In this document: positions 35,340 to 49,116 of the stretch, piece after piece
Layout: every line of letters begins with the position of its first letter
Numbering within the stretch: position 1 is the stretch's first letter
DNA from: Syntrophaceae bacterium
GTDB lineage: Bacteria; Desulfobacterota; Syntrophia; Syntrophales; Smithellaceae
DNA length: 64,000 nt
Direction of reading: 5' to 3'
Assembly (NCBI GenBank): GCA_003139775.1
Contig: PLGI01000080.1
Span: 34,063 to 98,062 of the forward strand
Made by a program: the position numbers and the translations under genes
Notes under the pieces: generated by a model
Told to the model about the DNA's origin: nothing
What the model saw: the letters and a program-made list of their open reading frames with translations, nothing else
Database searches by the model: none

Positions 35340-37205
35340 TTGATTGATAACTATGATGTCTTGGTAATTGGCGGCGGGCATGCCGGCTGCGAAGCGGCCC
35401 TGGCTTCAGCGCGCATGGGTTGCCGGACAATTTTGTTTAATATTAATTTGGATTCGATTGCGCTGATGTCCTGCAATCCGGCCATTGGGGGCTTAGCCAA
35501 AGGTCAACTGGTCAAGGAAATTGACGCCCTCGGCGGTGAGATGGGCAAGATTACCGATAAAACCGCCGTGCATTTTCGGATGCTCAATGCCTCCAAGGGC
35601 CCGGCCGTTCATTCTTCCCGGATGCAGTGCGATAAGCAACTCTACCGGCTGACGATGAAAGCGGTAGTTGAGAATCAGCAGAATCTCAACATCCGGCAGG
35701 CCATGGTCGAGAGCCTCGTGATTGAAAACGGTACGATAAAAGGAGTGCTGGATCAAAGCGGTTATTTTTACGGCGCGAAAAAAGTTATTATTACCACCGG
35801 CACTTTTTTAAACGGTCTGGTGCATATAGGCGCTTCTCAAACACCTTCGGGACGCGCCGGAGAACTGGCTTCCATCGGACTTGCCAACAATCTCAAAGGG
35901 CTTGGTTTTGATATAGGTAGAATGAAAACGGGAACTCCGCCCCGCCTGCGCGCATCCTCTATTGATTTTTCCCGATTAGAGCGCCAAGACAGCGATCCCT
36001 CTCCGCAGCCATTTTCCTTTACCACCATTGCTCTGCGACCGGAGCGTTTGCCTTCCTATTTCAGCGCCACATCCGCCAAAACACATCGTGTGATTAGAGA
36101 AAATATTCAACATTCGCCTCTTTATTCCGGTACTATTAAGGGCGTAAGCGCCCGCTACTGTCCTTCTCTGGAAGATAAAGTAATGCGCTTCAGCGAACGC
36201 GAAAGCCATCCGGTGGTGCTGGAGCATGAAGGACTCGACACGCAGGAAGTATATGCCAAAGGTTTGGGCAACTGTCTGCCGCTGGAATTACAGTATCAGA
36301 TTGTACGCAGTGTGAAAGGATTGGAGCAGGCGCAAATCATGCGCCCGGCTTACGCGATAGAATATGATTTTGTTCAGCCGACACAACTTAAACCAACTCT
36401 GGAGACAAAATTAGTTGCAGGATTGTATCTGGCCGGTCAGATAAACGGCACATCCGGTTATGAGGAAGCGGCGGCGCAGGGTCTCTGGGCGGGAATCAAT
36501 GCCGCGCGCGCCGTGCAGGACGCGCCAGCCTTTATTCTGGATCGTTCCGAGGCTTACATAGCAGTGATGATCGATGATCTGGTTACGCGCGGCGTGGATG
36601 AACCCTACCGCATGTTTACCTCGCGCGCCGAATACCGTCTTATTCTGCGGGAAGATAATGCCATCATCCGTTTAATGGGCAAGGGCTGCGAGCTGGGATT
36701 GATTGATCGCGAGCATTATTTATCTTTGCAGGATAAAATTCATCAGATTGAGAAAGGGATTGAACGGCTGAAAGCATCATCGATCAACCCAACGCCGGAA
36801 ATAAACGAAATATTGGCAAAGATCCCATCACCGCCTTTGAATAATCACTCCACTCTTTACGGTCTGCTGAAACGTTATGAAATATCTTATGACAATTTGG
36901 CCGGATTTCCCGGCTGGGAGCCGCAAAGAGATTCCTTTGTCAAACAACAGATTGAAATTGAAACCAAGTATGAAGGTTACATCAAGCGTCAATTTGATGC
37001 CGTGAAAAAATTAAAAGATCAGGAAAAAAAGAAAATCCCGCCGGATTTTGATTACAACTGTGTTCCCGGCCTCTCCAATGAATTAAAAGCAAAACTCACC
37101 AAAATAGCGCCGCAAACACTAGGTCAGATGGAACGCATTATCGGCATGACCGAAGGCGCCATCTCCGCTGTCCTAATCATGATGAAGAAACAGGAAAGCC
37201 AGTAA
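35340..37205 (+). CDS. mnmG: tRNA uridine 5-carboxymethylaminomethyl modification enzyme
   Basis: 621-aa ORF with [19 protein letters not shown] start with AGGAG 8 nt upstream. Confidence 0.93.
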
Positions 37206-37320
37206 TTGAGTGCTGTGATATTTATTTTGACTTCACATAAATATTTCTATATAAGTAAACATAATTAATGAGACTGTCTGAATATTTTTTCATAAGAAAT
37301 GAATCCAAAGGCTTTTTATT

Positions 37321-38130
37321 GTGAAACAAAAATCATCAAATAAGGTGTTAACCTTACAGCTGCCAAGCTATAAAAAACCACCCGTGAATGAAGTTATATG
37401 TGGCATGCGGTATCAGATACCTGCAAATATTTGGATTCCACATATCGGAGTTCTTTGGTCCAAGTTTAGGCAAGAATATCCAAATATACAACATGCAAAT
37501 CCAATTTTTTCAAGTCCGCTTGAGGATTTAGCGACGGGACTACCTTTACCTAGAATATGGTTTATAAATGAGCAAGATGACCAATTAATACAATTTCAAT
37601 TTGACCGTTTTTATTATAATTGGCGTCGTCGTAACGACAATTATCCACGTTACCCTCATGTTATAACCAAATTTAAACAAACATTTGACTTAATTAGTGC
37701 ATTCTTTGATGAAAATGGCTTTGGTCAAGTTTTACCATTGGAGTTGGAACTATCTTATATAAACCATATCCCGCGAGGTGAAGGATGGGAAAAATTTGAA
37801 GATATCCAAAATTTATTTACTGATTTTAAGTGGGAATCAAGGCAAGGTCGTTTCCTGCCAAATCCAATTAAAACACAATGGACAGCAATTTTTCAGTTCC
37901 CAGACGAAAAAGGATTATTAACTGTTAATATCAAAGAAGCAATACGAATGAGTGATAAAGTGCCATTAATTGTTTTTGAACTAATCGCAAAAAAAACATG
38001 TGAAACAACAATTAAACAAGACGAAATATATTTGTGGTATGATTTAGCTCATGAATGGATTGTCCGAGGATTTACAGATTTAACAAGTCCAAAAGTTCAA
38101 AAAGATGTTTGGGAGATAGAAAATGCTTAA
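37321..38130 (+). CDS. Hypothetical protein, TIGR04255-like (island gene 1)
   Basis: 269-aa ORF in an AT-rich segment. From memory, the N-terminal YKKPPVNEVICGMRY and the C-terminal LAHEWIVRGF resemble the TIGR04255 family pattern. GTG start, weak RBS. Confidence 0.55.
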   Translation: MKQKSSNKVLTLQLPSYKKPPVNEVICGMRYQIPANIWIPHIGVLWSKFRQEYPNIQHANPIFSSPLEDLATGLPLPRIWFINEQDDQLIQFQFDRFYYNWRRRNDNYPRYPHVITKFKQTFDLISAFFDENGFGQVLPLELELSYINHIPRGEGWEKFEDIQNLFTDFKWESRQGRFLPNPIKTQWTAIFQFPDEKGLLTVNIKEAIRMSDKVPLIVFELIAKKTCETTIKQDEIYLWYDLAHEWIVRGFTDLTSPKVQKDVWEIENA

Positions 38131-38833
38131 TCCTAGTTTCCGAGAATATGAAAAATACAGAGCCGCTCAAAATATTTGTGCAGTTTACGACAACAAAGAA
38201 CTTCTCTCTGAAGAAATTGATGAAAGTATTGGAGTTTGGAACCCCAATGTACTGCAAATAAACCAATTTCAACAATGGTCGCAATCTTTTATTAAAGCAA
38301 GTATACATACCCAATGGGGATTATTCAATACAGAAGAAAATAAAATTACACAGGATTCTACTAAAACAAGTGCCTCTACCCAATTGGAATTACTAGATTC
38401 AGAAGAAAACAAACTTCAACAATTAATAATGAAAATTAGAGTTTCGGCGTCTACTTTATGTAATCATAAATTATTGAATATAGTAGAGCGCATTCTTACA
38501 TTATTAAAAGATGCAAAGGAAGAAGACGAATTCAGTGTTGGAATATCACCAGGGTCTCTTCTTAATTTCTATTCTTTTATAAGTAAACATGCTGATTTAA
38601 AACGACCAAAATTAGCTTTGACACCGGAAAATAATATATATGCTTCTTGGAAGACTGGCAAAGACAAGGTTTTCAGTATTCATTTCCTTGCAAATGGTGA
38701 TGCCCGTTTTGTAATCTTTAAACCAAGCGATAGACATCCTGATAAACCTATTAGGCTTTCTGGAATTGCGCCAGTAGATGATTTGATGCAAGAAGTGCTA
38801 ATCCCGCATGGTATATCTTGGGCACTAGAGTGA
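38123..38833 (+). CDS. Hypothetical protein (island gene 2)
   Basis: 236-aa ORF. The ATG (GGGAGA 6 nt upstream) overlaps the gene 1 stop by 8 nt. I recognise no motif. Confidence 0.55.
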   Translation: MLNPSFREYEKYRAAQNICAVYDNKELLSEEIDESIGVWNPNVLQINQFQQWSQSFIKASIHTQWGLFNTEENKITQDSTKTSASTQLELLDSEENKLQQLIMKIRVSASTLCNHKLLNIVERILTLLKDAKEEDEFSVGISPGSLLNFYSFISKHADLKRPKLALTPENNIYASWKTGKDKVFSIHFLANGDARFVIFKPSDRHPDKPIRLSGIAPVDDLMQEVLIPHGISWALE

Positions 38834-39231
38834 AAAACAAAATTATCCCAGACAGTAATCATGTTGCCCGATATTGCAAACCAACCACCGTTGAAAATAA
38901 CGAGATTTTGGCCACTGCCTTCCTCATGAGACCTATAGATGGAAGTTTGTCAGTAAATTGGTTAGAATATTTAAAACTATCAACCAGAGAAAAAGAAATA
39001 TCAAAAATCCAAGACGTATATAATAAAAAATTAAAAGTCAGTCCAATGTCAAGAATAGCAGTTGTAAATGTTGGTCTAGCAAGAGAGAAGGTTTTTTCTG
39101 AAAGTGATGATAGAAGGAATATTCAGTTCAAGCATGATCCATCAAAAGAAGATCCTTCCCACAGTGGGATATTTAATTCTTGTTTGGGGTTAATTCCCCT
39201 TAGCTTGCTACGAAAGGCCTATTCCTTATAG
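38830..39231 (+). CDS. Hypothetical protein (island gene 3), 3' end disrupted by hairpin repeats
   Basis: GTG 38830 forms a GTGA overlap with the gene 2 stop (the ORF track gives TTG 38818). The last about 17 codons are read from repeat sequence. Confidence 0.5.
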   Translation: MKNKIIPDSNHVARYCKPTTVENNEILATAFLMRPIDGSLSVNWLEYLKLSTREKEISKIQDVYNKKLKVSPMSRIAVVNVGLAREKVFSESDDRRNIQFKHDPSKEDPSHSGIFNSCLGLIPLSLLRKAYSL

Positions 39232-39263
39232 AGGCTTTTGATACCCCGTAGCTTGCTGCGGGG
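39196..39263. repeat. Two tandem copies of the hairpin-1 module of the repeat family (MITE/REP-like)
   Basis: CCCCTTAGCTTGCTACGAAAGG (39196-39217) and CCCCGTAGCTTGCTGCGGGG (39244-39263). Compare ATACCCCGCCGCTTGCTTTGGGGTTCAT at 25254-25282. Confidence 0.7.
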
Positions 39264-39266
39264 TAG

Positions 39267-39356
39267 TTCATTCTTAAATCAGATGATGAAATGATTGCAG
39301 AACTGATTTTATCTGTTGTTGATCAGGAACGTCACGTATACCCGGCAAAAAGATAA
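39267..39356 (+). pseudogene. Orphaned C-terminal coding remnant, probably of island gene 3
   Basis: An open 29-codon stretch, FILKSDDEMIAELILSVVDQERHVYPAKR*, lies just after the repeat insertion in a different frame from gene 3. Confidence 0.4.
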
Positions 39357-39411
39357 AAACTTAATAAGTATTATTTTTGCTGTTTCTTAGGTTTGTTGCA
39401 GTTTATTTTTC

Positions 39412-39747
39412 TCATTTTGTATTTTTAGAATTTAATTGAGCTCTTGCTTGAACGAGTTTTTCTTTGTCCAGATAATATTTTCCGTTGTTCGTTTTAATTA
39501 CCAGACCATCATCGATTAAAAGTTTTAGCGCTTTGGGACGAATGTTTTTGACGCCCACGCGAAAGAAATTTTTTCGTTCATCCTGAAGTTTAACCGCCCT
39601 CGCCTCTTTAAAAGCTCTGGCCTCTTCCATTTCGGCGATAATCTTAAAACAAGTCCGTTGCACAGCCAAACCACCCATGTAAATAACAAGGACAACAAAG
39701 GCAATAAAAGCGGCAACCAGCAGAATTATTTGTAAATAAACAGGCAT
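39412..39747 (-). CDS. Hypothetical membrane-anchored protein
   Basis: 111-aa ORF with an N-terminal TM helix followed by a charged soluble domain. No recognisable motif. Confidence 0.5.
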   Translation of the reverse strand: MPVYLQIILLVAAFIAFVVLVIYMGGLAVQRTCFKIIAEMEEARAFKEARAVKLQDERKNFFRVGVKNIRPKALKLLIDDGLVIKTNNGKYYLDKEKLVQARAQLNSKNTK

Positions 39748-40360: not shown

Positions 40361-41164
40361 ATGAAAAAAGCTTACGTTCACGGTTACGATCATCGGGAAA
40401 ATATACGATTACAGGATCAGGCCTCAACTTTGGTTGAATTACTGCACTCCGACACGAAGTATCCGGCAGGAAGCAAAGTTCTGGAAGCCGGTTGCGGTGT
40501 TGGAGCACAAACCGTCACCCTTGCGAAAAACAGTCCGGATGCGTTGATTACTTCTGTCGATATATCCGAGACCTCTCTTGTTGAAGCCAGGAAAAAGGCA
40601 GCGGCGGCAGGCGTGACTAATGTTTACTTTGAAAAGGCGGATATTTTCAATCTGCCTTTTGTACCGGAATTTTTCGATCATATTTTCGTGTGTTTCGTTT
40701 TGGAACATCTCTCCCGGCCGGTCCAGGCGCTCAATGCATTAAAAGAATATTTGAGGGAAGGCGGCACGATCACAGTGATCGAAGGGGATCATGGCTCGGT
40801 CTATTTTCATCCGGAGAGCGATACGGCACATAAAGCGATTCAGTGTCAGATTGAACTGCAACGGCGGGCCGGCGGCAATGCCATGATAGGTAGGGAACTG
40901 TATCCGCTGTTGAATAAGGCAGGCTTGAACTCTGTTCGTGTATCTCCTCGAATGGTTTATGTTGATTCCAGCAAGCCTGAACTGGTCGAAGGTTTCACGA
41001 AGAAGACATTCACGGCGATGACAGAAGGTGTCCGTGAAGCGGCAATCAAGGCAGGAATAATTGAAGAACAAGTTTTTGAACAAGGCATTAGGGGCTTATA
41101 TCGAACTGCCGAGGCGGACGGAGTTTTCTGTTATACGTTCTTTAAGGCCATTGGAAATAAATAA
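40361..41164 (+). CDS. Class I SAM-dependent methyltransferase
   Basis: 267-aa ORF with motif I, VLEAGCGVGAQT. Confidence 0.8.
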   Translation: MKKAYVHGYDHRENIRLQDQASTLVELLHSDTKYPAGSKVLEAGCGVGAQTVTLAKNSPDALITSVDISETSLVEARKKAAAAGVTNVYFEKADIFNLPFVPEFFDHIFVCFVLEHLSRPVQALNALKEYLREGGTITVIEGDHGSVYFHPESDTAHKAIQCQIELQRRAGGNAMIGRELYPLLNKAGLNSVRVSPRMVYVDSSKPELVEGFTKKTFTAMTEGVREAAIKAGIIEEQVFEQGIRGLYRTAEADGVFCYTFFKAIGNK

Positions 41165-42833: not shown

Positions 42834-43076
42834 CTAAATTCCTTTCCAATTAGTATAGCCTTTCTAGAGTGATTGCTAAAATTTTTCAACTAACTTTTGT
42901 CAATTTATTAAAACTTAATTGAATCTTCGGTAACTTACGATCTTACTTTTTTAGTATAATTATCAGAAAAAACTTATAATTGGCTCATTCTTTGCTAAAT
43001 TATTCTTAATAGCTAAAAAACGATTGCTATTAGTACAATTTTGTTACAAAATAATTTTGGGTTTGTCGAGCCGTCT

Positions 43077-44660
43077 ATGAGAAAGGCTACAAAAAAATCT
43101 TTTTCTGAGAAAGAGCGAAATTTGAGTATTCATAGCTATGAAGAATTGGCCACCTTGCACGCGATAGCTAAAATTTTAGCTCAGCCTCAAGACCTGCGCG
43201 ATCAACTAGCGCTTGTCCTGCAGGAAATGAGTTACCGTCTAGGCATGAAGCGGGGCATGATTTCACTTCTGGACAGGGAAAAAAAAGAAGCATGGCTCGA
43301 TATTGCTCATGATGTCAATATTGAAGGAATGGATGTAACCTACAAGCCCGGCGAGGGTATCACAGGCAAAGTGGCGGAAACAGGCCGCCCCATGGCCATA
43401 GCTAATCTTGGTCAGGCTACTCACTTTTTAGACCGCACCGGCGCCCGCCGTCATTTAAACAGATCGGAGCTTGCTTTTCTTTGTGTTCCCATTATTTATG
43501 ATGCAAATGTCATCGGCGTTCTGTCAGCCGATAAAGTAGCTATCGAAGTGGAAGATTTGGACAAGGAACTGGCCATGCTCTCATCGGTAGCTGAGCTGAT
43601 GGCCAAGGCCGTGCATATCAGGGCTCTGGAGGAAGAAAATGAACGCTTGCGAAAAATTGTCGGCAGTGAGCGCGCGCCTTCGATAGATATTATCGGCCAC
43701 TCTAAGCCGATGCAGGAAGTATTCGGTTTGGTAGCCCAAGTATCCGATTCCAATACGACAGTCTTAATCACCGGCGAAACAGGAACCGGTAAAGAACTGA
43801 TCGCCAGGGCGATCCATATGAATTCTCCGCGGCACAAAGGGCCGATGGTGCAGGTTAATTGCGCAGCCATTCCGGATACGCTGATTGAAAGCGAGCTTTT
43901 TGGTCATGAAAGAGGGGCCTTTACGGGGGCACTGCATCAACGCCGGGGGCGTTTTGAGGAGGCTAACGGCGGCACAATTTTTTTAGATGAAGTTGGAGAG
44001 CTTTCCGCTGCCGCTCAGGTAAAGCTTTTGCGCGTTTTACAGGAAAAGAGATTTCAGCCGCTGGGCTCTTCGCGGATTATAAATGTTAATGTCCGCATTA
44101 TCGCGGCAACAAACAGGGATTTAGAACAAGACATTGTGGCGGGACGTTTTCGCGCCGATTTGTTTTACCGGTTGAATGTTTTTCCAATATATTTACCCTC
44201 GTTGCGCGAAAGAGGCAGCGATATTATACTTTTGGCAGATCATTTTATTTTGAAATACAGCAAGGAAATGGGAAAGAATGTTAAAAAAATTTCTACCGCG
44301 GCAATAGAAGTATTTCTATCTCACAAATGGCCGGGTAATGTGCGTGAACTGGAAAATTGCATCGAAAGAGCTGTTCTGCTTTCCAATACCGATACTATCG
44401 ATTCTTTTCATTTGCCGCCGTCTTTGCATGTCAGAGAAACAAAGGTGGAAAAAAAGGACCACAGCAAATTAACTTCTGTTGTCGAAGCGCAGGAAAGATC
44501 TTTAATTATTGATACGTTGGAAGTAACCGGTGGTAATCAAACAAAGGCCGCCAAAATTTTGGGGACAACAAAGCGCATCATTCAATATAAAATTAGCAAA
44601 CTGGGAATTAATCCCAAGCTTTTCCGTAAAAATAATAAAAATTCCGATGATACTGATTAA
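43077..44660 (+). CDS. Sigma-54-dependent transcriptional activator (GAF - AAA+ - Fis HTH; NifA/NtrC-type EBP)
   Basis: Reads [40 protein letters not shown] and a C-terminal HTH. ATG 43077 is preferred over TTG 43041 because the decayed paralog at 47853 starts at the homologous position. Confidence 0.88.
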
Positions 44661-44743: not shown

Positions 44744-44817
44744 TGAGGGGTCGTCTAAAGGTAGGACAACAGGTTCTGGCCCTGTGAATCGAGGTTCGAG
44801 TCCTTGCTCCTCAGCCA
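44744..44817 (+). tRNA. tRNA-Gln (anticodon CUG), CCA encoded
   Basis: Manual cloverleaf: acceptor TGAGGGG/CTCCTCA (U1-A72); D stem GTCT/GGAC; anticodon stem ACAGG/CCTGT with loop TTCTGGC; T arm CGAGG-TTCGAGT-CCTTG; discriminator G plus CCA. Confidence 0.9.
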
Positions 44818-47396: not shown

Positions 47397-47852
47397 CACC
47401 ATTAACAGAAATGTACCCTACAGCAAGAACCGCGCATGCTAATTGAAAATTGATAGGAATAACGATAGTATAAGTCAACAAAATAAGAAAAATCCTTAAA
47501 GACAAAAGCTGAATTAAAGCATAGCGGAAAGATTTGATAATAATTGGTTAACTCCTTGTTCTGAAGATCTACAAATTAATTATTCTTAGCACAATTTTGT
47601 AACAAATTGCTTTAAGGAGTTAGTAAAAAGATCAAAATAATGGTGAAGATCAAAAATCATGGTAAAACTCCAACGATTCTTAAAGAACTCTAATGTCATT
47701 ATAAATCCACGATAAAAATTCCGAAAAGATGAACATGACTTTTTGTAACGATTTGTAAGATATTTTAGGTACATTCTATAAAGATAAAAATATTAGTTGC
47801 TATTAGCATATTTTTTTTATAAAATTAATGATTAAGGTTCTATGCTCATTAT

Positions 47853-48412
47853 ATGAGCAGAATTTTGATAAAACTATTTGTCAGGAAAGATACGACCTTG
47901 AGCGTTTATAGTTACGAAGAATCAGCCACCCTATACGCAATTGTCAAGCCGTAGGCGCAGCTGAGGTATTTGGACGATCAGTTGAAGCAAATCATCGACG
48001 AAATTAGCTTGCGTCTGGGTATGCAAAAGAATTTGATTTCGTCGTTGGATCGCGAAAAAAGAGGTTTGGTTCTGCATTGCTTATGGTATCGATAGAGAAG
48101 GGGTGAATATAACTTATAAACCCGGCTTCTATAAATGGCCGGATAACGTGTGGAAATTGGAAAATTGCATTAAGCAAGATGTTTTATTATCAAAGACTAA
48201 TACTATAGATTGCCAGCATCTTCCACCTTTATTGCAAATAGCGGAAAAGAAAATTGAGAAGTAAAGATAAAAATGCTTTCTTCTGTTGTTGAAATTTAAG
48301 AAAAAGTTTAATTATTAAAGACTTGGAAGAAAACAGGTGGTAACCAGACAGAAGCTGCTTATAAAAGTATGAAGACAAATTATAAAGCAACAATTGCAAA
48401 TAAAAGTTTAAG
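47853..48412 (+). pseudogene. Decayed paralog of the sigma-54 EBP (stop codons, frameshift, AAA+ domain deleted)
   Basis: Reads MSRILIKLFVRKDTTLSVYSYEESATLYAIVKP*AQL...SLRLGMQKNLISSLDREK. After the A-run at 48055-48060 it continues in the +1 frame as KEVWFCIAYGIDREGVNITYKPG, which joins directly to YKWPDNVWKLENC. HTH remnant: TGGNQTEAAYKS. Confidence 0.8.
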
Positions 48413-48529
48413 ATATTTCATCCTTTTAATAATAACAAATTTGTACTTTTCAAATAGGAAGATGGATTTTTTTATAGCGTAAATAATTAAAAATGAAGAG
48501 CATACAATAATATAACTTATTTTGAACAA

Positions 48530-48546
48530 TTGGTATGAATATAGCA
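48530..48546 (+). promoter_or_regulatory. Candidate sigma-54 (-24/-12) promoter of the 10-gene operon
   Basis: TTGGTATGAATATAGCA has GG (48532-33) - N10 - GC (48544-45). It lies about 150 nt upstream of 48697. Confidence 0.4.
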
Positions 48547-48640
48547 ACAAACATAACGCATTATGATCTTGTTATGATCAGGCCGGAAAGAGTTTTTGGA
48601 TGATTTATCAAAATATGTATCGTTTGTTTGCCCAAATTTT

Positions 48641-48659
48641 GGATGAAATTCTTTCATCC
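48641..48659. promoter_or_regulatory. Perfect 8-bp inverted repeat in the operon leader
   Basis: GGATGAAA-ttc-TTTCATCC, 38 nt before the first start codon. TTTTGGATGA also occurs at 48594-48603. Confidence 0.35.
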
Positions 48660-48696
48660 ATGTTTGTGATTAATAATAGTCATGTCATGAAAGAAG

Positions 48697-49116
48697 GTGT
48701 TGCAACTGAATACTCACATTCCTAAAATATATCTCTTCTATTGTGCAACAAGCTACGATCAAGAAGAATTGTTGAAAAGTTATTCCCTGCAGGCCGTCGA
48801 GATTAAAGTAGTATCATTGCCCTGTTCTGGAAAACTGGACATTCTTTACCTCACTAAAGCATTTGATACCGGTGCGGATGGGGCTGCCATTCTGATATGC
48901 AAAGAAGGCGAATGTCATTATATGGAAGGTAATATGCGCGCCAGAAAACGTGTACAAGCCGTCGACGAATTACTGGAAGAAGCTGGCCTCGGAAAAGGCC
49001 GGACTAAAATAATTCAGATGGGAGACAAGGGTATCACAGGGGCCGTCCATGAATTAGAAGATTTCTTACTTCAAATAAAGACAATGGTTGAAAATGCTCC
49101 ATCTTTGCAAAAATAG
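48697..49116 (+). CDS. MvhD/FlpD-like protein, cysteine-depleted variant
   Basis: 139-aa ORF that aligns with the canonical MvhD at 61627 (LPCSGKLDILYLTKAFDTGADGAAILICKEGECHY). The N-terminal FCCHYC motif is replaced by FYCATS. GTG start. Confidence 0.7.
   Translation: MLQLNTHIPKIYLFYCATSYDQEELLKSYSLQAVEIKVVSLPCSGKLDILYLTKAFDTGADGAAILICKEGECHYMEGNMRARKRVQAVDELLEEAGLGKGRTKIIQMGDKGITGAVHELEDFLLQIKTMVENAPSLQK

What the first reader, a model, noticed from the sequence alone, without database searches (positions are those of the whole stretch)
37321..39356. AT-rich three-gene island of unknown function after mnmG (candidate accessory or defence-type module)
**Structure and composition.**
- Three co-oriented ORFs have coupled junctions. 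ATG 38123 overlaps the gene 1 stop by 8 nt, and GTG 38830 forms a GTGA overlap with the gene 2 stop.
- The segment has much lower G+C than its surroundings. Hand counts give 20/60 at 37321-37380 and 17/60 at 38401-38460.
- The flanks give 40/60 at 36481-36540 in mnmG and 30/60 at 40501-40560.
- The right edge is marked by MITE-like hairpin repeats that have broken gene 3.

**The proteins.**
- The gene 1 N-terminus (YKKPPVNEVICGMRY) and C-terminus (LAHEWIVRGFTD) recall the sporadically distributed TIGR04255 family, whose function is unknown. This is from memory and unverified.
- Genes 2 and 3 match nothing I recognise.

**Inference.** Compositional anomaly, sporadic-family membership, translational coupling and a mobile-repeat boundary are the usual hallmarks of horizontally acquired defence or toxin-antitoxin-like cassettes.
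Basis: partly seen in the sequence, partly recalled or inferred. Interest (0 to 1): 0.7.

Follow-up and report, generated by a model that had tools for sequence, protein, structure and literature searches.

The report
Mobile three-gene TIGR04255 cassette, disabled
An AT-rich insert after mnmG carries a widely spread, uncharacterised three-gene operon (a TBP-like protein, a variable adaptor and a small putative enzyme) that looks like a mobile defence or toxin-antitoxin-type module, and whose third gene has been broken here by a 95-base mobile hairpin element.

Summary

**What it is**
- The three genes form a strictly conserved operon. All 55 cassettes examined have the same gene order and overlapping junctions.
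- It occurs in at least ten phyla, in unrelated neighbourhoods. Neighbours include integrases, transposases, restriction-modification and toxin-antitoxin genes, and once a plasmid relaxase.
- Gene 1 is predicted to be two tandem TBP-like (helix-grip) domains.
- Gene 2 has a hypervariable N-terminal part and a conserved C-terminal domain.
- Gene 3 belongs to a large family (2,216 clusters) of stand-alone proteins of about 140 aa. Arg, Ser and His are conserved, and a confident model matches no solved structure.

**Wider family**
- More distant TIGR04255 genes keep the three-gene layout but sometimes carry a different third gene (DUF7689, HEPN-like, or an unnamed Cys family).
- In those distant relatives, gene 2 (clearly) and gene 3 (weakly) match PADLOC's untested candidate system PDC-M32.

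**Most likely reading**
- It is a tripartite conflict module (defence or addiction): a nucleic-acid or ligand sensor, an adaptor or neutraliser, and an enzymatic effector.
- This copy is decaying, because the effector gene is interrupted.
- The function is inferred, not shown.

The parts
37198..37320 (+). Upstream control region of the cassette. It starts at the last two codons of mnmG and holds a promoter-like TTGACT (37227-37232), a 17-nt spacer and TATAAG (37250-37255).
   Evidence: - About 96% DNA identity to the same region of L090, while the adjacent mnmG 3' end is much more diverged.
- The hexamers were read directly from the sequence.
- The consensus scan did not list them because the second hexamer ends in G.
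37321..38130 (+). Gene 1: a TIGR04255-family protein of 269 aa, predicted to be two tandem TBP-like (helix-grip) domains.
   Evidence: - NCBIfam TIGR04255: 49.7 bits against a cut-off of 30.
- AF2 model: pLDDT 87.6, pTM 0.86, with two S1-H1-S2-S5-H2 units.
- Foldseek best matches are TBP chains (E 2e-4, probability 0.99, but TM only 0.26-0.36).
- 892 homologue clusters found.
38123..38833 (+). Gene 2: 236 aa, with a hypervariable N-terminal part of about 85 aa and a conserved C-terminal domain of about 150 aa. Proposed adaptor or neutraliser.
   Evidence: - 316 homologue clusters; alignment A4.
- Always found between genes 1 and 3.
- No Pfam, PADLOC, PHROGs or PDB match.
- The equivalent gene of distant cassettes matches the C-terminal third of PADLOC PDC-M32A, with E down to 6e-13.
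38830..39176 (+). Gene 3, 5' part (residues 1-116). It holds all the conserved residues: R14, C16, S41, E46, H102, H111.
   Evidence: Alignments A2 and A8. Intact homologues are 140-143 aa.
39177..39271 (.). A 95-nt MITE-like hairpin element inserted in gene 3. It shifts the reading frame, so the ORF ends at 39231.
   Evidence: - Clean insertion relative to L090.
- Hairpin of -35.4 kcal/mol, z = -3.1.
- Multi-copy family found in metagenomes.
- Two population contigs end inside it or within about 11 nt after it.
39272..39356 (+). Gene 3, 3' remnant (the last 27-28 codons and the stop), now out of frame.
   Evidence: Translation LKSDDEMIAELILSVVDQERHVYPAKR* aligns with the C-termini of intact homologues.
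39412..39747 (-). Convergent 111-aa ORF with an N-terminal hydrophobic segment and low G+C (0.38). Its membership of the island is uncertain.
   Evidence: - Also present next to the cassette in L090 and in the population contigs.
- It is not a conserved neighbour of other cassettes.
- Only sub-threshold family matches.

Best explanation
The segment is one copy of a widespread, horizontally mobile three-gene operon built around a TIGR04255 protein. It most probably acts as a tripartite conflict module: anti-phage, abortive-infection or addiction type.

**Proposed working (inferred)**
- The three translationally coupled products form a complex.
- Gene 1 is a free-standing pair of TBP-like domains with a conserved polar face (E24, R78, Q91, Q93, D95, R96, N100, Y146, N148). 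It would bind a nucleic acid or nucleotide-like ligand and act as sensor or targeting subunit. The TBP-like domains of the RnlA toxin are substrate-binding modules in this way.
- Gene 2 would bridge or neutralise through its conserved C-terminal domain. Its fast-evolving N-terminal part would give specificity.
- Gene 3, a small alpha/beta protein with family-wide Arg, Ser and His, would be the enzymatic effector.

**Shown**
- The operon, its conservation, its mobility and the fold prediction for gene 1.
- The interruption of gene 3 by a 95-nt MITE. It removes the last helix and strand, so this copy is most likely non-functional.

**Inferred**
- The conflict function and the role assigned to each of the three proteins.
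For: **Co-occurrence**
- All loci whose gene 1 is at least about 41% identical to the window's carry genes 1, 2 and 3 in the same order.
- The g1/g2 overlap is 8 nt in 32 of 55 cassettes. The g2/g3 overlap is 4 nt in 42 of 55, and g2/g3 always overlap.

**Mobility**
- Gene 1 is about 55% identical across Thermodesulfobacteriota, Planctomycetota, Nitrospirota, Calditrichota, Ignavibacteria, Cloacimonadota, Spirochaetota, Marinimicrobia and KSB1. More distant three-gene copies occur in Pseudomonas and Leclercia.
- One identical gene 1 protein sits in three different neighbourhoods.
- Cassettes lie next to a tyrosine integrase and a large serine recombinase on IMG/VR contigs, and next to a MobF relaxase on a Mycobacterium plasmid.
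- The composition is the most extreme in the window.

**Neighbours**
- There is no conserved neighbour.
- The commonest neighbour families are DNA methyltransferases, Schlafen/AlbA_2, nucleotidyltransferase, MazE, Fic, ParE/Phd and transposases.

**Modularity**
- Distant TIGR04255 genes keep the three-gene layout.
- Most keep a gene 3 homologue (hhalign probability 91.6%, E 8e-7).
- Others carry DUF7689 (1e-40), a HEPN-like protein (HEPN_IX 3.5e-4) or an unnamed Cys-containing family instead.

**Link to a defence catalogue**
- Gene 2 of distant cassettes matches PADLOC candidate PDC-M32A (E 6e-13 to 4e-3). Gene 3 of distant cassettes weakly matches PDC-M32B (5e-3 to 1.5e-2).

**Gene 1 fold**
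- The AF2 model shows two tandem S1-H1-S2-S5-H2 units, and TBP is the top Foldseek match.
- TBP-like domains are substrate-binding modules of the RnlA toxin (PMC8266594). They are also fused to some bacterial Schlafen defence nucleases (PMC13056530).

**Gene 3**
- The family has 2,216 clusters. The top 150 are all stand-alone proteins of 99-188 aa, mostly about 140-150.
- S41 is invariant. R14, C16, E46, H102, P104 and H111 are at least 90% conserved.
- The model has pLDDT 96.
Against: - No experimental evidence exists for any member. Full-text searches for TIGR04255, CHP04255 and DUF7689 found no paper.
- The window's own three proteins match no PADLOC, PHROGs or Pfam model.
- PDC-M32 is itself only a computational candidate (PMC12429752).
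- The cassette is nearly absent from phage records, plasmids (1 record) and IMG/VR.
- The defence-gene enrichment among neighbours was not tested against a background rate.
- The TBP match has low TM-scores (0.26-0.36). There is no sequence similarity to RnlA.
- Gene 3 has no significant structural match in the PDB, so calling it the effector rests on conserved polar residues and analogy alone.
- Gene 1 is the most conserved of the three (62% mean identity) and has many invariant polar residues. It could itself be the enzyme.
Confidence: 0.5

Rival explanations
1. The operon is an accessory nucleic-acid processing, repair or modification complex with no role in conflict. A TBP-like RNA/DNA-binding subunit would present substrate to a small modifying enzyme, and the operon would spread by horizontal transfer like many accessory operons.
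For: - TBP-like domains also serve housekeeping enzymes (RNase HIII, DNA glycosylases; PMC3710099).
- Gene 1 is highly conserved across phyla, which suits a universal substrate.
- The window copy sits directly after mnmG, a tRNA-modification gene, in two related genomes.
- No defence-model match for the window proteins.
Against: - The mnmG context is not conserved outside this lineage.
- The third gene is swapped for unrelated families (DUF7689, HEPN-like) in other cassettes. This is typical of conflict systems, not of a fixed enzymatic pathway.
- Neighbours are often restriction-modification, toxin-antitoxin and recombinase genes.
- The distribution is patchy, and this lineage tolerates loss of gene 3.
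Confidence: 0.2
2. It is a conflict module, but with the roles swapped. Gene 1 (TIGR04255) would be the catalytic or toxic component, using the conserved polar pocket of its helix-grip fold. Gene 3 would be a regulator, immunity protein or antitoxin.
For: - Gene 1 has the largest set of family-wide invariant polar residues (E24, R78, Q93, Y108, plus Q91, D95, R96, N100, E143, Y146, N148).
- It is the constant gene, while genes 2 and 3 vary.
- Helix-grip proteins include enzymes; Foldseek lists polyketide cyclases, norcoclaurine synthase and thebaine synthase.
Against: - In this genome gene 3 is the broken gene, and the broken state is fixed in the sampled population. Loss of an antitoxin with an intact toxin should not be tolerated.
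- The genes that replace gene 3 (HEPN-like, DUF7689) are more effector-like than antitoxin-like.
- The best fold match is TBP, a binding domain rather than an enzyme.
Confidence: 0.15
3. The low G+C is only local compositional noise in a native, vertically inherited gene cluster, so there is no island.
For: - Other AT-rich patches exist in the window (for example 47501-48500 at 0.31).
- No integrase, tRNA or direct repeats flank the segment in the window.
Against: - It is the lowest-G+C 2.2-kb stretch of the window, and its GC3 is half that of its neighbours.
- The same cassette lies in unrelated contexts in at least ten phyla.
- The upstream region is about 96% identical between two genomes whose flanking mnmG ends have diverged far more.
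Confidence: 0.03

Closest known systems
TIGR04255 (NCBIfam 'TIGR04255 family protein', function unknown)
   Same: Gene 1 passes the curated cut-off over the full model. JGI and NCBI name its homologues the same way.
   Different: - The family name carries no function.
- The constant three-gene context, the tandem TBP-like fold prediction and the swappable third gene were worked out here. Full-text searches found no paper describing them.
PADLOC candidate system PDC-M32 (two genes: A about 375 aa, B about 123 aa; untested 'phage defence candidate')
   Same: - The C-terminal domain of gene 2 in distant TIGR04255 cassettes matches PDC-M32A positions about 257-370 (E 6e-13 to 4e-3).
- Their gene 3 weakly matches PDC-M32B (5e-3 to 1.5e-2).
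- Their gene 3 is homologous to the window's gene 3.
   Different: - The window's genes 2 and 3 do not match the PDC-M32 models.
- PDC-M32 has two genes. No TIGR04255 protein tested matches the N-terminal 255 residues of PDC-M32A.
- Homology between the window's gene 2 and the distant gene 2 is not significant (hhalign E 0.28).
RnlA-RnlB / LsoA-LsoB (RNase LS toxin-antitoxin, anti-phage)
   Same: - RnlA has two TBP-like domains (TBP1, TBP2), and TBP1 is needed for substrate binding, ahead of its HEPN nuclease domain (PMC8266594).
- One TIGR04255 cassette (L060) has a HEPN-like third gene, so it resembles a split RnlA.
   Different: - No sequence similarity between gene 1 and RnlA (hhalign E 0.74).
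- RnlA is not among the top 50 Foldseek matches.
- The window's gene 3 is not a HEPN domain.
- This is three separate genes rather than a fused toxin plus antitoxin.
TBP-domain / helix-grip fold proteins (TATA-binding protein, RNase HIII N-domain, Bet v 1/START)
   Same: Gene 1's predicted topology is two tandem S1-H1-S2-S3-S4-S5-H2 units. TBP chains are the best Foldseek matches (E 2e-4, probability 0.99).
   Different: - TM-scores are only 0.26-0.36, and sequence identity is 7-9%.
- The two halves show no detectable sequence similarity to each other.
- No evidence of DNA binding.
ADP-ribosyltransferase fold enzymes (Tpt1/KptA, R-S-E toxins)
   Same: - Gene 3 has a conserved aromatic-Arg on strand 1, then a hydrophobic-Ser on strand 2, then a catalytic-type residue on a late strand.
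- Among the gene 3 model's PDB matches, KptA structures have the highest TM-scores listed (0.39-0.41).
   Different: - The Foldseek probability is only 0.30-0.33 and E is 0.5-0.9.
- The third motif is His, not Glu.
- The comparison of motif spacing rests on my own knowledge of the family.
- This is a lead only, not a membership claim.

Membership tests
TIGR04255 (NCBIfam) | Whole-protein HMM score above the curated cut-off, with full-length coverage | tested here: met
   49.7 bits against a cut-off of 30; residues 17-260 cover profile positions 2-248 of 252.
PADLOC PDC-M32 | Adjacent genes matching the PDC-M32A and PDC-M32B HMMs | tested here: not met
   - Window genes 2 and 3 give no PADLOC match at E <= 1.
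- Only distant cassettes match: A at 6e-13 to 4e-3 (C-terminal third only), B at 5e-3 to 1.5e-2.
TBP-domain superfamily (fold) | S1-H1-S2-S3-S4-S5-H2 topology, here duplicated in tandem | tested here: met
   DSSP on the AF2 model: E22-31, H40-49, E55-59, E78-82, E88-93, E96-102, H111-131, then E139-151, H159-165, E186-192, E199-209, E214-226, H233-254. The second unit is missing one strand.
TBP-domain superfamily (fold) | Significant structural superposition on a solved TBP | tested here: inconclusive
   Foldseek E 2e-4 and probability 0.99 for 8iue_U and 9k3b_U, but TMq is 0.25-0.27 and rmsd is 11-13 A.
RnlA/LsoA (RNase LS) toxin-antitoxin | HEPN domain with the RX4-6H motif, and sequence similarity to RnlA | tested here: not met
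   No HEPN match for the window proteins. hhalign of gene 1 against E. coli RnlA gives E 0.74.
Known anti-phage defence systems (PADLOC-DB 2.0) | Any component matching a catalogued defence protein model | tested here: not met
   No match for genes 1-3 at E <= 1.
Defence-island or mobile-element cargo | Variable neighbourhoods enriched in defence, toxin-antitoxin or recombinase genes | tested here: inconclusive
   - Among 136 neighbour proteins the commonest families are DNA methyltransferases, Schlafen/AlbA_2, nucleotidyltransferase, MazE, Fic and transposases.
- Integrases or a relaxase lie adjacent in L214, L215 and L091.
- No background rate was computed.
Toxin-antitoxin system | One product is toxic and is neutralised by a co-expressed partner | not testable with these tools
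   This needs expression assays. The only indirect hint is that gene 3 is the broken gene, and the broken state is fixed in the population.
ADP-ribosyltransferase superfamily (gene 3) | ART fold with an R-S-E or H-Y-E catalytic triad | tested here: inconclusive
   - R14 is at least 90% conserved and S41 is invariant.
- The third position is His (H111).
- KptA matches reach only TM 0.39-0.41 with probability 0.30-0.33.
MITE (miniature inverted-repeat element), for the 95-nt insert | Short, non-coding, hairpin or inverted-repeat structure, many copies in unrelated sites | tested here: met
   - 95 nt.
- Hairpin with z = -3.1.
- At least 120 metagenome stretches carry the core, and full-length near-identical or about 90% identical copies occur in other flanks (L195, L092, L125, L156).
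MITE (miniature inverted-repeat element), for the 95-nt insert | Target-site duplication | tested here: inconclusive
   ATTCTT flanks both ends at a 94-nt spacing, but the net insertion is 95 nt. No clean duplication can be defined.
Genomic island (horizontal acquisition) | Deviant composition and patchy phyletic distribution | tested here: met
   G+C 0.339 against 0.434, the lowest in the window. Cassettes are about 55% identical across many phyla.
Genomic island (horizontal acquisition) | Integrase, tRNA target or flanking direct repeats at this locus | tested here: not met
   No integrase ORF adjoins the cassette. The nearest tRNA is at 44744-44814.

The most novel reading that the evidence does not exclude
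TIGR04255 cassettes are a large, previously unrecognised class of modular tripartite immune or addiction systems. A free-standing tandem TBP-like protein would be the constant sensor or targeting subunit. It would be paired through a fast-evolving adaptor with interchangeable effectors:
- the Arg-Ser-His family of about 140 aa seen here, whose fold matches no solved structure;
- DUF7689;
- a HEPN-like protein;
- an unnamed Cys-containing family.

PADLOC's candidate PDC-M32 would then be one offshoot of the same superfamily.
Probability: 0.35. Interest if true: 0.8.

Novelty: new variant of a known kind. Interest (0 to 1): 0.6.

Why it matters
If the reading is right, three things follow.
- A 'sporadic, function unknown' family (TIGR04255) gains a genomic logic: it is the constant first gene of a mobile three-gene cassette.
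- A very large unannotated family of small proteins is tied to it. There are 2,216 clusters at 50% identity, with no Pfam model and no solved structure.
- There is a further case of TBP-like domains working beside effectors in bacterial conflict systems, here as a separate subunit rather than fused as in RnlA or some Schlafens.

Testable material is available. Intact cassettes exist in cultivable Pseudomonas, Leclercia and Mycobacterium, and candidate catalytic residues are defined.

For this particular genome the finding is modest. It is a decaying copy whose third gene was hit by a MITE.

Tried and rejected
**Family and structure searches that found nothing**
- Pfam, PHROGs and PADLOC scans of the window proteins: no matches.
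- Pfam scan of 142 diverse gene 3 homologues: only chance-level hits.
- Profile searches of PDB sequences for genes 1, 2 and 3 and for their distant versions: nothing real.
- Foldseek of the gene 3 model against the PDB: nothing significant. The best E-values are proteasome chains with TM below 0.2. KptA reaches TM 0.4 but probability only 0.3.
- Foldseek of the gene 3 model against viral structures: one unnamed protein.

**Comparisons that were negative**
- hhalign of gene 1 against E. coli RnlA.
- hhalign of the N-terminal half of gene 1 against its C-terminal half.
- hhalign of the window's gene 2 against the distant gene 2: not significant.

**Collection searches**
- tblastn of gene 1 against phage records: none.
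- tblastn of gene 1 against plasmids: one record.
- blastn of the Leclercia cassette against E. coli genomes: none.
- Rfam for the hairpin element: nothing.
- Literature searches for TIGR04255, CHP04255 and DUF7689: no papers.

**Ideas considered and dropped**
- A Zn-binding site in gene 3 (C16, H102, H111, E46). C16 and H102 are not kept in the distant branch.
- A TTAA target-site duplication for the MITE. It is rejected because excising a TTAA-flanked element (101 nt) would not restore the frame, whereas the 95-nt deletion does.
- The hairpin as a plain terminator. It does match the terminator pattern, but it is part of the inserted element.
Full report
**1.

- Three co-oriented ORFs lie at 37321-38130 (269 aa), 38123-38833 (236 aa) and 38830-39231.
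- Gene 2's ATG overlaps the gene 1 stop by 8 nt, and gene 3's GTG forms GTGA with the gene 2 stop.
- Over 37206-39400 the G+C is 0.339, against 0.434 for the window. This is the lowest of all 2.2-kb stretches in the 64 kb.
- GC3 is 0.23, 0.23 and 0.28 for the three genes, against 0.52 for mnmG and 0.46-0.51 for genes further right.
- Gene 1 passes the curated threshold of NCBIfam TIGR04255 (49.7 bits against 30, full length).

**2. Gene 3 is broken by a mobile hairpin element**

- Intact homologues of gene 3 are 140-143 aa and end ...HSGIYN...DDE(L/M)IAELIL....YPA...
- The window copy follows them to HSGIFN, then diverges. The missing C-terminus (LKSDDEMIAELILSVVDQERHVYPAKR*) is present in another frame up to 39356.
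- DNA alignment with the closest intact cassette (L090; gene 1 95%, gene 3 88% identical) shows a clean 95-nt insertion at 39177-39271. Deleting it restores an in-frame 143-aa protein.
- The insert folds into a long imperfect hairpin (-35.4 kcal/mol, z = -3.1).
- Its 20-nt core was found in at least 120 metagenome stretches, many at contig ends.
- L195 holds a near-identical full-length copy in unrelated flanks, and L092, L125 and L156 hold copies about 90% identical.
- It is therefore a genuine multi-copy MITE-like element, with ends roughly TTTAATCTC...GTAGTTCATT. It is not the island's boundary.
- No Rfam family matches it, and no clean target-site duplication can be defined.
- In the population of this organism, every contig that carries the same mnmG protein also has the cassette with the broken gene 3. 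Two assemblies end inside the insert or within about 11 nt after it.

**3. The three genes are one conserved, mobile operon**

- Gene 1 has 892 homologue clusters, gene 2 has 316, and gene 3 has 62 by the word-indexed search.
- An exhaustive profile search raises gene 3 to 2,216 clusters at 50% identity. The best 150 are all stand-alone proteins of 99-188 aa, mostly about 140-150.
- A scan of one genome per species returned 80 loci. HMMs of the three families show that every locus whose gene 1 is at least about 41% identical to the window's has genes 1, 2 and 3 adjacent and in that order. The only exceptions are loci where a contig ends.
- Over 55 cassettes the g1/g2 junction is the same 8-nt overlap in 32, and the g2/g3 junction is a 4-nt overlap in 42. 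The g2/g3 junction always overlaps.
- Hosts span Thermodesulfobacteriota, Planctomycetota (anammox bacteria), Nitrospirota, Calditrichota, Ignavibacteria, Cloacimonadota, Spirochaetota, Marinimicrobia and KSB1, with gene 1 still about 55% identical. More distant three-gene copies occur in Pseudomonas and Leclercia.
- Neighbourhoods differ from locus to locus. One identical gene 1 protein sits in three contexts: beside a DDE transposase, an Apyc1-like metallo-beta-lactamase, ParE/Phd and a DNA methyltransferase.
- Among 136 flanking proteins of 55 cassettes there is no conserved neighbour. The commonest families are DNA methyltransferases, Schlafen/AlbA_2 with HATPase_c_4, nucleotidyltransferases, HTH_3, DUF1016, transposases, Fic and MazE.
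- On IMG/VR contigs, two full cassettes lie next to a tyrosine integrase and a large serine recombinase.
- On a Mycobacterium paragordonae plasmid, a cassette follows the MobF relaxase.
- The cassette is otherwise rare in sequenced phages (none) and plasmids (one record).

**4. Position in this genome**

- From about 37198 (the last two codons of mnmG) to the start of gene 1, the window and L090 are about 96% identical in DNA.
- The mnmG 3' ends upstream of that point are far more diverged, and L090 has about 70 extra bases there.
- This region carries TTGACT-17-TATAAG at 37227-37255.
- L090 also has the convergent 111-aa ORF downstream. The cassette therefore occupies the same site in two related genomes.
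- The right boundary is not defined. No integrase or tRNA adjoins it.

**5. What the proteins look like**

*Gene 1*
- The AF2 model has pLDDT 87.6 and pTM 0.86. It shows two tandem strand-helix-four-strand-helix units, which is the TBP-domain/helix-grip topology.
- The best Foldseek matches are TATA-binding protein chains (E 2e-4, probability 0.99), followed by Bet v 1, START and cyclase helix-grip proteins. TM-scores are low (0.26-0.36).
- The two halves are not similar in sequence.
- Family-wide invariant or near-invariant residues are E24, R78, Q91, Q93, D95, R96, N100, Y108, E143, Y146 and N148, plus several Trp. Their alternating spacing on neighbouring strands points to one conserved polar face of the sheet. 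That last point is an inference.

*Gene 2*
- It has a hypervariable first part of about 85 residues and a conserved C-terminal part of about 150 residues.
- It is the fastest evolving of the three. Mean pairwise identity is 45%, against 62% for gene 1 and 57% for gene 3 on matched loci.

*Gene 3*
- The AF2 model has pLDDT 96.2 and pTM 0.90.
- It has no significant match among solved structures and only one unnamed viral protein match.
- In 142 diverse members S41 is invariant, and R14, C16, F31, W44, E46, H102, P104 and H111 are at least 90% conserved.
- No Pfam model covers the family.

**6. The wider TIGR04255 family keeps the layout but varies the partners**

- Loci with gene 1 only 26-40% identical still have gene 1 followed by two overlapping or nearly abutting genes of about 150-310 and 120-250 aa.
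- In most of them the third gene is a divergent homologue of gene 3. These are alpha-proteobacterial and other loci, plus the Mycobacterium plasmid. hhalign gives probability 91.6%, E 8e-7, with the Arg, Ala-Phe, Ser-Val and Pro...His motifs aligned.
- The residues conserved across both branches are therefore Arg, Ser, Pro and His.
- In others the third gene belongs to a different family:
  - DUF7689 (1e-40; L056, L067);
  - a HEPN-like protein (PADLOC HEPN_IX 3.5e-4, Pfam HEPN only 0.044; L060);
  - an unnamed family with TQACDL and LLPPYREHLSQAFARFFMRVGLP motifs (five Acidobacteria loci).
- Swapping of one position while another stays constant is the pattern expected of modular conflict systems.

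**7. Link to a defence catalogue**

- The second gene of the distant cassettes matches the C-terminal third of PADLOC's PDC-M32A (E 6e-13 to 4e-3). Their third gene weakly matches PDC-M32B (5e-3 to 1.5e-2).
- PDC-M32 is a 'phage defence candidate' without experimental support. The one paper that mentions it only lists it in Sinorhizobium prophages (PMC12429752).
- The window's own genes 2 and 3 do not reach these models.
- Homology between the window's gene 2 and the distant gene 2 is not significant. The only stretch aligned is the expected one, P.ISLTP..NIYASW against P.ivP..GGlQ.EWH.

**8. How it most likely works**

- TBP-like domains have precedents in conflict systems.
  - In the HEPN toxin RnlA, the TBP1 and TBP2 domains are substrate-binding modules, and TBP1 is needed for RNA substrate binding and activity (PMC8266594).
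  - A TBP-like domain binds RNA-DNA hybrids in RNase HIII (PMC3710099).
  - TBP-like domains are fused to 1.5% of bacterial Schlafen defence nucleases (PMC13056530).
- By analogy I propose three roles:
  - gene 1 is the nucleic-acid- or ligand-binding sensor or targeting subunit;
  - gene 3 is the enzymatic effector;
  - gene 2 is an adaptor or neutraliser whose variable N-terminal part tunes specificity.
- The tight translational coupling fits a stoichiometric complex.
- The broken gene is gene 3, and the broken state is fixed in the population. This fits gene 3 being the harmful component, since its loss is tolerated. It is a single anecdote.
- The chemistry of gene 3 is unknown. An ADP-ribosyltransferase-like reading is a weak lead only. 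It rests on aromatic-Arg, then hydrophobic-Ser, then a late catalytic residue, and on KptA being the highest-TM PDB match at 0.4.
- There is no sequence similarity between gene 1 and RnlA, so the RnlA comparison concerns how the protein might work, not family membership.

**9. Rivals**

- *A non-conflict accessory nucleic-acid-processing complex.* This is the main alternative. It fits the high conservation of gene 1 and the lack of catalogue matches. It does not fit the swapping of the third gene or the mobile-element contexts.
- *A role-swap in which gene 1 is the enzyme.* This cannot be excluded, given gene 1's many invariant polar residues.
- *No island at all.* This is refuted by the composition and distribution.

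**10. Verdict**

- The finding is real. The defence or toxin-antitoxin function remains an inference.
- At family level this is an undescribed three-gene system with two structurally novel or unassigned components. Intact copies exist in cultivable hosts, which makes it testable.
- The copy in this window is a decaying one.

Noticed in passing
window 47400-48700: A 1.3-kb AT-rich stretch (G+C about 0.31) with no ORF of 90 aa or more. Short ORFs at 47970-48264 read like fragments of a sigma-54 activator paralogous to the gene at 43041-44660 (for example ...RLGMQKNLISSLDREK... and ...WKLENCIKQDVLLSKTNTIDCQHLPP...). It looks like a decayed pseudogene.
   Followed up: partly
window 39177-39271; loci L092-L211: The hairpin core CCCCGTAGCTTGCTGCGGGG is shared by several different repeat families in many metagenomes. 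Examples are ...GAGCGAGCGCATTCCCCGTAGCTTGCTGCGGGGTTAGCGAGCGATTAGAATAA... and ...GGCGACTGCCGCGAGGGTCAAATACCCCGCAGC...GATGCCCCGTAGCTTGCTGCGGGGTATTTGAC.... Copies often lie at contig ends, and no Rfam family matches. The core may be a common recognition hairpin used by several small mobile elements.
   Followed up: partly
L054, L055, L057, L059, L069 (third gene of the TIGR04255 cassettes): Five Acidobacteria-type cassettes carry an unnamed third-gene family (147-236 aa as called). Its strongly conserved motifs are LTQGDLIF.CP, VVMTQACDLEH.K and LLPPYREHLSQAFARFFMRVGLP. It has no Pfam, NCBIfam or PADLOC match.
   Followed up: partly
L213 4007-5312 (Acetobacter persici plasmid NZ_CP014688): A 297-aa protein carries two tandem copies of the gene-2-like 'WDGY...GSLQLEWH..LDLEL' domain. 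It is followed, with overlap, by a 140-aa gene that RefSeq names as the ClpXP specificity-enhancing factor SspB. The domain is therefore used in other two-gene contexts, possibly tied to proteolysis.
   Followed up: no
window 39412-39747 (- strand): A convergent 111-aa ORF with an N-terminal hydrophobic segment and low G+C. Its only family hits are sub-threshold: TIGR04561 membrane protein (1e-3, below cut-off) and PADLOC AbiEi (5e-3). It is also present beside the cassette in L090. It is unclear whether it belongs to the island.
   Followed up: no
window 37198-37320 vs L090 1-239: The untranslated region upstream of gene 1 is more conserved between the two genomes (about 96% DNA identity) than the gene 2 protein (80%). 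This suggests a constrained operator or leader.
   Followed up: partly
L003 and L004 9034-12825: Downstream of one cassette lie an Apyc1-like metallo-beta-lactamase (Pfam Anti-Pycsar_Apyc1), a ParE/Phd pair and an N6/N4 DNA methyltransferase. This is a defence/counter-defence-type neighbourhood.
   Followed up: no
window 44744-44814: This is the only Rfam match at gathering threshold in the whole window: a tRNA gene (53 bits). It lies between the sigma-54 activator gene and a glutamine amidotransferase-like gene.
   Followed up: no
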